From positions 1 through 11,953 of IMG/VR virus record IMGVR_UViG_2563366976_000008: a DNA stretch of 11,953 bases. One strand, 5' to 3'. Origin of the DNA: a virus (lineage: Duplodnaviria; Heunggongvirae; Uroviricota; Caudoviricetes). Shown in pieces: positions 9,001 through 11,953 of the stretch (the first letter of the stretch is position 1; each line of letters opens with the position of its first letter). The position numbers are program-made.

Positions 9001-11953
9001 GTTATCACTTCTGCTCTCATTGCTGGTTTGCGCTTGCATTGCAAGACCACTCGTGAGGGGGTTGGCCTGTGTAGCTTGTCGGAGCTGATCGCCTCCTGAC
9101 TTTGCAGATTTGCACGACGAGCTCTACGGCGAGAAGCTGCGGTTCCTTTAAATTCTGTTTTTCTGGACATAGATTCCTCCCGAATAAACTTTGGCGATGC
9201 AATCTCGAAGCCCCTCCTGAGACGGTTGCTTCGGCATTGCATCCCACAGCTTATGTGGTTGGGTGATCTGGCTTTTCAGCCACGTAGTCGAGTGTTCGAC
9301 GTTGTTTAAAGAGCCTGCCAATCTTTTCCGTTTGGCTACCAGCGTCCTGCTGATGGAAATAATAGTCACATATTGTGATTTAATGGTCAATCACAAAATG
9401 TGTAAAATAAGGGTGTGACACGTTATGTGTATGATTTTTTTGTGTAAATAGTTTTCCCCGCGATGGGTTTGCTTACTTAAGGCGGGGGAAACAGCAGGAT
9501 GGTGTGCTGAAAAGTTCGAAAAACGAGCGAAGTAGGTGGTGACGAGATGGCGGGATATGGGAGTTGTATTAAGAATTATAGTAATTTAATCAGAGGCTTG
9601 GGCTGGCTGGCAGGTGCTGTCCTGATAGTTATGTGCAGGCAACAAAAAACCCGGGGCGGTTCAGGTTGTCTCATTTTTTAGTTTGCTTTGGATTCGGTTT
9701 GTCTCTTCTTCCAATTATAAACACGCTAGTTAAAGCAACTAACTCAGCACCAAGAAGCCCGGTAGCCCAGCCATAAGCCTCGTGCTGAATCATCTTGTAA
9801 GCAATTCCTGCGAAAACAAAGACAGAAGTCATCGCAAAGATCTGTCCGAGTCGATCTCGCCAAATTGCTCCCCTCTGTCCTGCTTTGTAATACTCGTGTC
9901 TGTGTTTTTGCTCAGCCTTAGCCATGTCCATTATTTCGCGAGCGAATCCTGGAGATATTCTTTCGTACTTAGCTAATTCGTCAGCGTCTGGGAGTGGCCC
10001 TGATCTAGTGTGAGTCACCTGCATCATGATGCCAGCTAGATCTGGCCTGTCCATGAGGCGCTCAAGAACTTGAGGGTTCTTTGCGACCTCATTTATAAGC
10101 AGTTCGGTTTTACCGTCTTGAACTCGCCCTAACGGAGTTGGTTGGTTAACAAGATTTCTCGGTGCGGCGGTTTGAAGCTTTCTTTGGGATTTTTTTCTGC
10201 TCATTATCAGTTACAGCGTCTCTAACGTAACTACCTACCTTAACCCAATCTGAGTTGATAAGGTCGATGTCTGTAGCATTTGAATGATACTCGCTGTAGC
10301 TACCTGCTGGGCAAAGGTCAAGGATAGAGCCCATAGCGCTGAAAAAGTGCTTTGCAGATTTTTTCATGTGGGGTGTCCTATATGTTGTTTACTCTAATTT
10401 GAGTAATTGAAGTTTACGCAAAACCTAGCTTTCAGCAAGCAATACAGCACAAAAAATCATGTAAATTTGCGTCTATTTTTATCTACCGGAAAAATGCTCA
10501 ACAACTTTAGAGAAAAAATAGCAATACCAAATCAAACCAATTGCTGCTTCGCCTCTACCCAAACGTCTCTTCAGGCCACTGAGCCTTAACTACCTTGCCT
10601 ATGATGCGGCATGTGTGATCGCAGTCCAGGGTTCTGTATGCCGGATTCAATGGAACCAAGTAACTAACCCCTGCATCCTTCTCATACTTCTTGAACGTTG
10701 CCTCTGAATCACCATTTGCAGAAGCCACGCAGAAATCCCCAGACTCTACCGGCTCGGCCGGATCAACGAGTATCAGCATACCCTCAGGAAAACTCGGCCT
10801 TACGCCCTGTGGCGCAGTCATAGAATGGCCTTTCACCTCAAGCCAGAAAGCTTTTTCGCTGGCTTTTGTGGTCGTTGGGACCCATGCCTTTGCATCGCTT
10901 GCTGTGTAGCTTCCAACCTCCGAAAACGGCCCGGCCTGCACTGAAGAAAATAACGGGTACTCATATTGGCGAAATACAGCGTCTGAATCCTCGCCAAACA
11001 TTATTTTTGCCGGAGATACGCCGAGTGCCGCCCCAAGAACCAGCGCGTCATCCGCGCTAACCTTTCTTGTTCCTAACTCGTAGTTCCCCAGGCGTGAAGG
11101 CGCAGCCCAGCCGCAAAGCTTGGCCAATTGAGCCTGGCTAAGTCCTTTAGCTTCTCTAAGGGACTTGATCCTTTCCCCGATAATTTCATGCATCGTTTTC
11201 ATCCTTTAAATGTAACACGCAACGTGATTGAACTCTGTACACGAATTGAGGTTGACTGTTAATCACAAATTGTGTGTAATGGGTGTGTGATTAATACTAG
11301 GGAGACCGCAATGAACAAAATTGCCCAGCAGCGAAAAAAAATCGGAGTTTCGCAAGCTGTACTGGCTTCGGCAATTGGTTGGGGGCAATCCCGCATCGCC
11401 AACTATGAGCTGAATATCCGTACTCCTAGACTTAACGATTGCCGAAAGATCGTAGAAGGCCTCAGGAAGTTAGGGTGCCAATGTTCTTTGGATGATGTTT
11501 TCCCTCCATCCAGTAACAAAGCCGCCTAAGCAGTACCCGCTCTTTGTAACAACGGACATTCGTCCTACGTCGCTGAAAAGCGAGTCCCAAGATATCTGAC
11601 CAACTAAGGCCATATGCGTTTCCACGCATACCTTTCAACTAACTATTCACTATTGGAAATCTTAAGAAATGGAAAGAACAAGTTACAGCAAACTATCACA
11701 GCGTGACGTTGATCGCGCTGAAACAGATTTACTTATCAACCTGTCAACGCTTACTCAGCGCGGTCTGGCAAAGATGATTTGAACCGCCCCGGGAATCCTG
11801 GAGACTAAACTTCCTGAGAAAGAGGTAAACAGGATGACTAAAAATACTCGTTTTTCCCCTGAAGTCCGTCAACGGGCAGTCCGTATGGTTCTGGAAAGTC
11901 AGGGCGAATATGACTCACAATGGGCGACAATTTGTTCCATTGCTCCAAAGATT

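What the first reader, a model, noticed from the sequence alone, without database searches (positions are those of the whole stretch)
9647..9663. Inverted copy of the IS629-like terminus directly downstream of the cassette, with no IS body attached
CCCGGGGCGGTTCA is the exact reverse complement of the IS left-end terminus at 11780-11793. A specific 14-mer recurring by chance in 12 kb is very unlikely. The two copies face outward and bracket the immunity region (cassette, cI, cro, truncated cII). It could be a solo end left by IS-mediated deletion or rearrangement, or an IR-like sequence that attracts IS3-family insertion.
Basis: partly seen in the sequence, partly recalled or inferred. Interest (0 to 1): 0.45.

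Follow-up and report, generated by a model that had tools for sequence, protein, structure and literature searches.

The report
IS629 end scar in prophage terminator
The 17-base motif is a leftover tip of an IS629-type insertion sequence that once sat in the transcription terminator behind the prophage repressor operon and was later deleted, wrecking the terminator hairpin; it is a tidy but ordinary case of mobile-element archaeology.

Summary
CCCGGGGCGGTTCA occurs at 9650-9663 (+) and 11780-11793 (-), which no shuffle reproduced. With three more bases, 9647-9663 equals the last 17 nt of the IS629/IS1203 right end, and no IS body is attached.

The site is the Rho-independent terminator of the leftward cI/DUF2335-cassette operon, annotated as such in phage VT1-Sakai. 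Every relative read carries an intact hairpin, AAAACCCGGC-loop-GCCGGGTT, at about -19 kcal/mol. This includes relatives sharing the window's exact left flank and relatives sharing its right flank.

Only this prophage lineage reads AAAAAACCCGG|GGCGGTTCA|GGTTGTCTC (-9.2 kcal/mol). Both flanks are ancestral and 11 hairpin bases are replaced by the last 9 bases of the IS. The IS tip abuts ancestral DNA exactly. The other joint lies in AAACCCGG, an 8-nt repeat shared by the terminator arm and the IS end.

Best reading: IS629 inserted into the hairpin, and a deletion of about 1315 bp between the two repeats removed it. This matches known IS-loss scars.

An assembly 100% identical over 5.2 kb has the scar but an intact cII. 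The scar is therefore independent of the IS at 11780, and the "bracketing" of the immunity region is coincidental. Interest is low to moderate.

The parts
9647..9663 (+). 17-nt stretch identical to the tip of the IS629/IS1203 right inverted repeat (AAACCCGGGGCGGTTCA). This is the solo-end scar.
   Evidence: 17/17 to IS1203 positions 1294-1310. The same end is present in the window's own IS variant.
9647..9654 (+). AAACCCGG, an 8-nt microhomology present both in the ancestral terminator (A-tract plus left arm) and in the IS right end. It is the inferred deletion joint.
   Evidence: Present in all intact-hairpin relatives and at IS positions 1294-1301.
9655..9663 (+). GGCGGTTCA, the bases that can only come from the IS. 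They replace 11 ancestral bases (CGCTGAGGCCG or CGCGGAAGCCG), that is, the hairpin loop and right arm.
   Evidence: Alignments A1 and A2 and direct string comparison with 20 or more relatives.
9664..9670 (+). GGTTGTC, ancestral DNA that abuts the IS tip directly (the transposase-made junction). The same 7-mer follows the ATT target duplication at the cII insertion.
   Evidence: Identical in all DUF2335-cassette relatives. The cII right junction is visible in L166.
9636..9690 (-). Degraded Rho-independent terminator of the pRM (cI-orf73-DUF2335) transcript.
   Evidence: The homologous position is annotated 'putative rho-independent terminator for pRM transcript' in VT1-Sakai. RNA fold is -9.2 kcal/mol (z -0.74) here, against -18.9 to -20 kcal/mol (z -3.0 to -3.8) in five relatives.
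9671..10204 (-). DUF2335 membrane protein (177 aa), the last gene of the cassette downstream of cI.
   Evidence: Pfam PF10097, E 1.4e-17. phrog_3996 'moron' membrane protein. No PADLOC hit.
10146..10367 (-). 73-aa ORF of the cassette.
   Evidence: phrog_26284, E 1.5e-39. Called as a gene in relatives.
10555..11202 (-). CI-type repressor (HTH plus Peptidase_S24).
   Evidence: Pfam hits.
11311..11529 (+). Cro-type HTH regulator (72 aa as called in relatives).
   Evidence: Pfam HTH_3. Gene calls in L133 and L145.
11669..11782 (+). cII truncated to 37 codons. The stop codon TGA is supplied by the first three bases of the IS.
   Evidence: Translation compared with the intact 98-aa CII of L145. PF05269 on the gene call.
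11780..11953 (+). Left end of an IS629-type IS3-family element (left inverted repeat from 11780, orfA ATG at 11834). It is a separate and later insertion with a 3-bp target duplication, ATT.
   Evidence: 100% identical to the 1310-bp element in L007. The right junction GGTTCA|ATT|GGTTGTC is seen in L166, which is 100% identical to window 4555-11953.
8898..9242 (-). Antiterminator N. It lies downstream, on the same strand, of the damaged terminator and of pL/nutL.
   Evidence: Pfam PF25694, E 2.4e-32. nutL, pL and oL positions come from homology to the VT1-Sakai annotation.

Best explanation
The motif is a footprint of a lost IS629-family (IS3 family) element. Shown: the ancestral sequence here was the intrinsic terminator that ends the leftward repressor operon (cI, orf73, DUF2335), read on the + strand as ...CAACAAAAAACCCGGC-GCTGAG/GCGGAA-GCCGGGTTGTCTCATTTTTT. 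Inferred: an IS629-type element inserted into the right arm of that hairpin, so that its tip ...GGCGGTTCA came to lie directly against GGTTGTCTC. Inferred: a deletion then joined two direct copies of AAACCCGG. One copy is the terminator's A-tract and left arm; the other is positions 1294-1301 of the IS right end. With a 3-bp target duplication this removes 1315 bp, which is the IS length plus 5. It takes out the loop, the right arm, one target duplication and all but the last 9 IS bases. Shown: what remains is AAAAAACCCGG|GGCGGTTCA|GGTTGTCTC, a 17-nt perfect copy of the IS right end with no body. The deletion could be replication slippage or strand switching during copy-out. It could also be microhomology-mediated end joining of the kind promoted by the IS-excision enhancer IEE. 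Which of these occurred is not determinable here. Shown by folding, inferred for function: the 8-bp GC-rich stem is lost, so pRM transcripts are probably terminated much less efficiently before pL/nutL/N. Shown: the scar arose once in this prophage lineage and predates the separate IS629 insertion in cII at 11780.
For: (1) The match is real and non-random. (2) The site equals the annotated pRM terminator of VT1-Sakai. (3) Relatives with the same DUF2335 cassette and right flank all have an intact hairpin: L003-L005, L008-L012, and 9 of 10 places. All 21 complete E. coli genomes with the cassette show only 88-88.7% identity across the scar, the same value as the three whose hairpin was read as intact. 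(4) Relatives with the window's exact left flank (GCAGGCAACAAAAAACCCGG), the same cI (99.1-99.6%) and another cassette also have the intact hairpin (L143, L144, L146-L149). Both flanks are therefore ancestral and only the middle changed. (5) The changed middle is exactly the last 9 nt of the IS and ends at the IS tip (TCA). That is the signature of a transposase-made junction and not of recombination. (6) The other joint falls in an 8-nt repeat shared by the terminator and the IS end. (7) The predicted deletion of IS length plus 5 fits the described pattern for IS loss: deletions close to IS length between short microhomologies, with retained pieces intruding into the IS (ISApl1/Tn6330; bioRxiv 10.1101/2023.06.07.543989, section 12). 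IEE-associated IS629 excision and microhomology-mediated end joining are also described (PMC9943667). (8) Hairpin energy drops from about -19 to -9.2 kcal/mol. (9) The scar occurs in the same prophage context in L133, L145 and L156/L166, which is consistent with a single origin.
Against: No occupied site, meaning a full IS at this terminator, was found. The junction GGGGCGGTTCAGGTTGTCTCATTTT is absent from genome contigs, viral contigs and metagenome contigs. No complete E. coli genome has an IS629 right end abutting this flank. A left-junction pattern found nothing in viral contigs. The target duplication and the IS orientation cannot be recovered. The left end would give only a 5-nt microhomology (CCCGG). 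The 17-mer tip is shared by other IS3-family elements, so the donor IS is identified by context only. Loss of terminator function is predicted from folding and was not measured.
Confidence: 0.72

Rival explanations
1. Same scar, different history. The DUF2335 cassette entered this immunity type by an intermolecular illegitimate recombination. A donor prophage carried IS629 inserted in its terminator next to the cassette. The recipient (same cI, 144+206-aa cassette) recombined at its own terminator AAACCCGG with the AAACCCGG of the IS right end on the left, and in the homologous cI gene on the right.
For: Same-immunity relatives with the identical left flank carry another cassette. Their homology to the window resumes at about 10559, the 3' end of cI. 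A cassette swap bounded by the terminator and cI therefore did occur in this lineage. The hairpin is a shared boundary for at least four different cassettes.
Against: An ordinary homologous crossover within the shared 26-nt hairpin explains the swap without any IS. This version needs the same unobserved IS-occupied intermediate plus a second crossover. No donor with an IS at this site was found.
Confidence: 0.13
2. No IS was ever inserted here. A template switch or short-patch gene conversion copied the IS right-end tip from an IS629 elsewhere into the terminator, primed by the similarity of the hairpin to the IS end (11-13 of 17).
For: The ancestral hairpins resemble the IS right end more than 98-99.9% of control sequences do. 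The cII::IS629 right junction in the same prophage reads AAACCCGGGGCGGTTCA-ATT-GGTTGTC, and the scar reads AAACCCGGGGCGGTTCA-GGTTGTC. Homology therefore exists on both sides of the replaced segment.
Against: The scar lacks the ATT that such a copy from the cII junction would carry. L145 has the scar without any IS in cII. No IS629 copy with a GGTTGTC right flank was found in complete E. coli genomes. The best flank extensions are chance T-rich matches, and 0 of 133 IMG/VR flanks carry it. A copied tract ending exactly at the IS tip would be a coincidence.
Confidence: 0.07
3. The motif is an ancestral, functional IR-like or regulatory sequence, or a chance product of point mutations in the hairpin. 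It has nothing to do with an IS.
For: The left 8-11 bases are ancestral terminator sequence. The remnant still scores as a weak terminator-like site on both strands.
Against: The exact motif is absent from all relatives outside one prophage lineage. Getting there from the hairpin needs a substitution, a 2-nt deletion and 2-3 further substitutions within 12 nt, in sequence that is otherwise 99-100% conserved. The result is a perfect 9-nt IS tip (about 4e-6 for a given 9-mer). The change destroys the stem rather than preserving a structure.
Confidence: 0.03

Closest known systems
IS629 / IS1203 (IS3 family, 1310 bp) terminal inverted repeats
   Same: The last 17 nt of the right end are identical, and 14 nt of the left end are identical in reverse. 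The TG...CA tip lies at the junction with host DNA. An active copy with a 3-bp target duplication (ATT) sits 2.1 kb away in the same prophage.
   Different: There is no transposase gene, no second end, no inner part of the inverted repeat (CCTGGAGA...) and no recoverable target duplication. It is a fragment and not an element.
IS-loss deletion scars (ISApl1 loss from Tn6330/mcr-1, Snesrud et al. 2018, as summarised in bioRxiv 10.1101/2023.06.07.543989; IS30 precedents)
   Same: The deletion is close to IS length, joins short direct microhomologies, and leaves a few bases of the IS end behind. Here the predicted deletion is 1315 bp for a 1310-bp IS.
   Different: The IS family differs (IS3 versus IS30). 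The microhomology is longer (8 nt versus 2-4 nt), because the target happened to resemble the IS end. The occupied intermediate is not observed here, whereas it is for Tn6330.
IEE-promoted IS629 excision and adjacent deletions in EHEC (Kusumoto et al. 2011; Calvo et al. 2023, PMC9943667)
   Same: The IS is the same. The products of that pathway are IS removal with joints at microhomologies.
   Different: Typical IEE products are precise excisions or deletions extending into flanking DNA. Whether this genome encodes IEE is unknown, and the enzyme's involvement is inference.
Lambda tImm-type terminator; 'putative rho-independent terminator for pRM transcript' of phage VT1-Sakai (AP000400.1)
   Same: The position is the same (after the last gene downstream of cI, before oL/pL) and the left half of the sequence is homologous.
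   Different: In the window the GC stem is destroyed and only a 5-bp stem with 2 G-C pairs remains.
IR-targeted insertion of IS3-family elements (IS911; Loot et al. 2002 and Rousseau et al. 2008, titles seen in reference lists; the content is from my own knowledge)
   Same: The pre-insertion hairpin matches the IS right end at 11-13 of 17 positions, and the insertion point lies 2 nt from where the pseudo-end would stop.
   Different: This was not demonstrated for IS629. Nineteen IS629 insertion sites show no such bias. The resemblance may have mattered only for the later deletion.

Membership tests
IS629/IS1203 element (IS3 family) | Terminal inverted repeat sequence ending in ...CA at the junction with non-IS DNA | tested here: met
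   17/17 identity to IS positions 1294-1310, and the tip TCA abuts ancestral GGTTGTC.
IS629/IS1203 element (IS3 family) | IS body with orfA/orfB transposase and a second inverted repeat about 1.3 kb away | tested here: not met
   No further IS similarity at 9300-9800. The upstream sequence is the phage pL/oL region, homologous to VT1-Sakai and mEpX1. It is a fragment and not a member.
IS629/IS1203 element (IS3 family) | 3-bp target site duplication | not testable with these tools
   The other junction was removed by the deletion. The neighbouring complete copy does have ATT.
IS-loss scar (solo end left by deletion) | Empty (unmodified) site in close relatives | tested here: met
   An intact hairpin is present in relatives sharing either flank.
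IS-loss scar (solo end left by deletion) | Deletion joint at a direct microhomology between the IS and flanking DNA, with deletion size close to IS length | tested here: met
   AAACCCGG is present in both partners. The reconstructed deletion is 1315 bp against an IS of 1310 bp. The reconstruction assumes a 3-bp duplication.
IS-loss scar (solo end left by deletion) | Occupied site (complete IS at the same position) in some relative | tested here: not met
   No hit in genome contigs, viral contigs, metagenome contigs or complete E. coli genomes. Absence in these collections does not exclude it.
Rho-independent terminator (tImm equivalent) | GC-rich stem-loop immediately followed by a U-tract, downstream of the last gene of the operon | tested here: not met
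   Position and U-tract are retained. The stem is reduced to 5 bp with 2 G-C pairs. The fold is -9.2 kcal/mol, z -0.74, against about -19 kcal/mol, z about -3.5, in relatives. It is a degraded member.
Composite transposon / mobilisable segment bounded by IS ends | Two IS ends with tips facing outward from the segment | tested here: not met
   Both tips (9663 and 11780) face into the 2.1-kb immunity segment. L145 has the scar without the second end.
IR-like target that attracts IS3-family insertion (IS911-type targeting) | Target resembles the IS end, and insertions are enriched next to such sequences | tested here: inconclusive
   The ancestral hairpins match 11-13 of 17 (controls >=12: 1.6%; >=13: 0.1%). 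However, 19 IS629 sites average 9.5 against 9.1 in controls.

The most novel reading that the evidence does not exclude
The terminator behind the repressor operon of this phage group is a natural pseudo-end for IS629, at 11-13 of 17 identity to the right inverted repeat. It both draws the element in (IR-targeted insertion) and provides the microhomology that later ejects it, leaving a diagnostic footprint. The footprint abolishes termination, so that pRM transcripts in the lysogen read through pL/nutL into N and the early-left genes and change prophage behaviour. The shared GGTTGTC next to both IS tips, and the re-use of one cII nucleotide position in both orientations, would then reflect real sequence-specific targeting by IS629 in lambdoid immunity regions.
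Probability: 0.15. Interest if true: 0.45.

Novelty: new member of a known kind. Interest (0 to 1): 0.25.

Why it matters
The finding matters in three modest ways. First, it is a clean natural example of how an IS can vanish and leave only a few bases. Both parental flank types and the microhomology are recoverable here, which supports microhomology or strand-switch models of IS loss for an IS3-family element outside the laboratory. Second, it warns annotators that a short exact match to an IS end can be half ancestral sequence, and that proximity to a real IS copy does not imply a relationship. Third, the scar removes the stem of the terminator that insulates the lysogenic repressor transcript from the pL/N early operon, which is a testable regulatory consequence for this prophage. 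None of this changes current understanding of IS biology or lambdoid regulation.

Tried and rejected
- **Full alignment of 9300-9800 to a complete IS.** Only the 17-nt tip matches and there is no hidden IS body.
- **Exact searches for the scar junction.** Searches of one-genome-per-species, viral and metagenome collections found nothing.
- **Search for the window's cII::IS junction.** It found nothing in viral or metagenome contigs.
- **Chimeric query (IS right end plus cassette flank) against 5,426 complete E. coli genomes.** No occupied site was found. The apparent 21-27-nt flank extensions were inspected and are chance T-rich matches.
- **Left-junction pattern in viral contigs.** It found nothing.
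- **Composite transposon or inversion linking the two ends.** I rejected this on tip orientation and on L145, which has the scar but no IS in cII.
- **Templated copy from the cII right junction.** I rejected this because the scar lacks the ATT duplication and predates the cII insertion.
- **GGTTGTC as a general IS629 target motif.** I rejected this: 0 of 133 unique flanks carry it.
- **General IR-like target preference.** It is not supported in 19 sites, though the sample is small.
- **Reading the IS911 targeting papers.** PMC2546779 and PMC126149 are not held.
- **Defence-system assignment of the cassette.** There was no PADLOC hit.
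Full report
**Observation**

The window reads 9640 caacaaaaaacccggggcggttcaggttgtctcatttttt. At 11780 it reads tgaaccgccccgggaatcctggagac..., followed by an orfA-type start at 11834. The 14-mer CCCGGGGCGGTTCA occurs exactly twice, at 9650-9663 (+) and 11780-11793 (-). Chance expectation is 0.04 matches, and 0 of 200 shuffles gave two matches.

I recovered two complete 1310-bp copies from E. coli genomes:
- IS1203, at L006 3051-4360, with target duplication GGA.
- A variant that is 100% identical to the window's 174 nt, at L007 1501-2810, with target duplication CTG. 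The two copies are 96% identical to each other.

Both end in ...CTCTCCAGGAAACCCGGGGCGGTTCA. Window 9647-9663 is therefore a 17/17 match to the right-end tip. Nothing else IS-like lies nearby.

**What the site is**

The ORFs and Pfam hits give a lambdoid immunity region:
- N, 8898-9242 (-).
- DUF2335 membrane protein, 9671-10204 (-).
- A 73-aa ORF, 10146-10367 (-).
- CI repressor, 10555-11202 (-).
- Cro, 11311-11529 (+).
- cII cut to 37 codons by the IS at 11780.

Window 9306-9660 is about 91% identical to the nutL-pL-oL region of phages mEpX1 and VT1-Sakai. In the VT1-Sakai record, the stretch homologous to window 9644-9666 is annotated 'putative rho-independent terminator for pRM transcript'. 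The motif therefore lies in the terminator that ends the leftward cI-cassette transcript, just before pL.

**Comparative anatomy**

Three sets of relatives were read at this position.
- Relatives that carry the same DUF2335 cassette and the same right flank (GGTTGTCTCATTTTTTAG...) under several different immunity types all read AAAACCCGGC-GCTGAG or GCGGAA-GCCGGG-TTGTCTC, a perfect 8-bp GC-rich hairpin. These are E. coli PD7, MS 21-1 and EF7-18-51, four IMG/VR contigs, one MAG contig, and 9 of 10 further assemblies.
- All 21 complete E. coli genomes with the cassette are only 88-88.7% identical across the scar. That is the value of the intact-hairpin type.
- Relatives with the same cI (99.1-99.6%) and the window's exact left flank (GCAGGCAACAAAAAACCCGG), but a different cassette (144+206 aa), also have the intact hairpin (L143, L144, L146-L149).

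Both flanks of the window's site are therefore ancestral. Only the middle differs: 11 bases (CGCTGAGGCCG or CGCGGAAGCCG) are replaced by 9 bases (GGCGGTTCA).

Those 9 bases are exactly the last 9 of the IS. They end at the IS tip, where ancestral DNA resumes. The bases to their left, AAACCCGG, are common to the terminator and to IS positions 1294-1301.

On the minus-strand RNA, the relatives fold at -18.9 to -20 kcal/mol (z -3.0 to -3.8). The window folds at -9.2 kcal/mol (z -0.74), with a 5-bp stem that consumes part of the U-tract.

**Mechanism**

A junction at the exact IS tip is what transposition makes. A junction inside an 8-nt direct repeat is what slippage, strand switching or microhomology-mediated end joining makes.

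The simplest history has two steps. First, an IS629-type element inserted into the right arm of the hairpin. Second, a deletion between the two AAACCCGG copies removed 1315 bp, assuming a 3-bp duplication. That is the IS length plus 5.

This matches the described pattern of IS loss. ISApl1 loss from Tn6330 involves deletions close to IS length, between short microhomologies, with retained sequence intruding into the IS; a replication strand-switch model is proposed and explicitly extended to IS629 and IEE. IEE-associated IS629 excision and end joining at microhomologies are also documented.

The insertion and the deletion are inferred. The intact ancestral state, the IS identity of the replaced bases and the microhomology are shown. 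I could not find an occupied site. The orientation and the duplication are unrecoverable. The left end would give only a 5-nt microhomology, which favours the right end.

**Relation to the IS at 11780**

The protein look-ups found the likely source scaffold. GCA_000351465.1 KB732669.1 (L166) is 100% identical to window 4555-11953. The window stops 2 nt before a 575-N gap inside the IS. There the right junction of the cII insertion reads GGTTCA|ATT|GGTTGTCATG. It is therefore a simple insertion with a 3-bp duplication.

L133, a read-set assembly, is identical as well. L145 (GCA_958310775.1) is 100% identical to window 6555-11779, scar included, but it has an intact 98-aa cII and no IS. The scar is therefore older than, and independent of, the insertion at 11780.

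In addition, both tips point into the 2.1-kb segment. The two ends therefore cannot define a transposable unit.

**Did the terminator attract the IS?**

The ancestral hairpins match the IS right end at 11-13 of 17 positions. Only 1.6% of control segments reach 12 and only 0.1% reach 13. IS911, another IS3-family element, is known to target sequences resembling its own ends. That statement rests on my own knowledge, since only the paper titles were seen and the papers are not held.

However, 19 duplication-flanked IS629 insertions in viral contigs show no such bias (mean 9.5 against 9.1 in controls). The resemblance may simply be why a recognisable scar was left. This part stays open.

**Rivals**

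- The same scar could have formed during an intermolecular cassette swap. This is possible, because a swap bounded by the hairpin and cI did happen. It needs the same unseen intermediate.
- A templated copy from an IS elsewhere is disfavoured. The scar lacks the ATT of the only nearby candidate junction and it predates that junction. No IS copy flanked by GGTTGTC was found.
- Chance or an ancestral functional motif is excluded by the comparative data.

**Verdict**

This is a solo IS629-type end: an IS-loss scar inside a degraded prophage terminator. It is a new instance of a known kind of event, with a plausible but untested regulatory side effect, namely read-through from pRM towards pL/N. 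Interest is low to moderate.

Noticed in passing
window 11777-11782; L134 4561, L136 3644; L166 (reverse complement) 7226-8181: The same nucleotide position in cII (GATGATT|) carries IS629 in the opposite orientation in a different prophage with a 231-aa CI (right-end-type tip GGGTTTCC, against left-end-type GGGAATCC here). That indicates independent insertions at one hotspot. Seven further contigs from other samples break within 0-2 nt of this position.
   Followed up: partly
window 9664-9670, and L166 (reverse complement) about 8182-8188: Both IS tips lie next to the same ancestral 7-mer, GGTTGTC. At the scar it follows the tip directly; at cII it follows the ATT duplication. It is not a general IS629 flank motif, since 0 of 133 unique flanks carry it. 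The only bias seen is a weak G at flank position 5 (66 of 133). This is unexplained and may be coincidence.
   Followed up: partly
window 11953 (end); L166: The window appears to come from scaffold KB732669.1 of assembly GCA_000351465.1. It ends 2 nt before a 575-N scaffold gap inside the IS, so the IS there is unassembled rather than truncated.
   Followed up: yes
window 9636-9672 and about 10555; L001, L002, L003-L005, L143-L150: The terminator hairpin AAAACCCGGC-loop-GCCGGGTT is a conserved boundary for swapping cargo cassettes downstream of cI. Relatives show at least four different cassettes to its right and several different pL/N modules to its left. The loop is variable (GCTGAG, GCGGAA, GCGGTG, TCGGTG) and the stem is invariant.
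   Followed up: partly
window 9671-10367 (-): The cassette in the rexAB-equivalent position encodes a DUF2335 membrane protein (phrog_3996, 'moron') and a 73-aa protein (phrog_26284). Neither matches a known defence system in PADLOC. The exact 177-aa protein is listed in more than 2,000 blocks of the assembly collection.
   Followed up: partly
IMG/VR loci L014, L019, L021, L029, L034, L042, L063 and others: The 17-mer AAACCCGGGGCGGTTCA is also the terminal sequence of other IS3-family elements in unrelated, GC-rich viral contigs (upstream ...CCTCCGG[C/T]). The tip alone therefore does not identify IS629. L026 and L048 may be further solo occurrences.
   Followed up: no
L016, L173, L006: Other IS629/IS1203 copies lie in or beside cII of related prophages at different positions. 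Two of them lack matching flanks, which suggests IS-mediated rearrangement. The cII-O interval therefore seems to be a recurrent landing zone.
   Followed up: no
window 8337-8876 (+): A SieB superinfection-exclusion gene lies on the opposite strand, between N and the early-left genes, as in VT1-Sakai.
   Followed up: no
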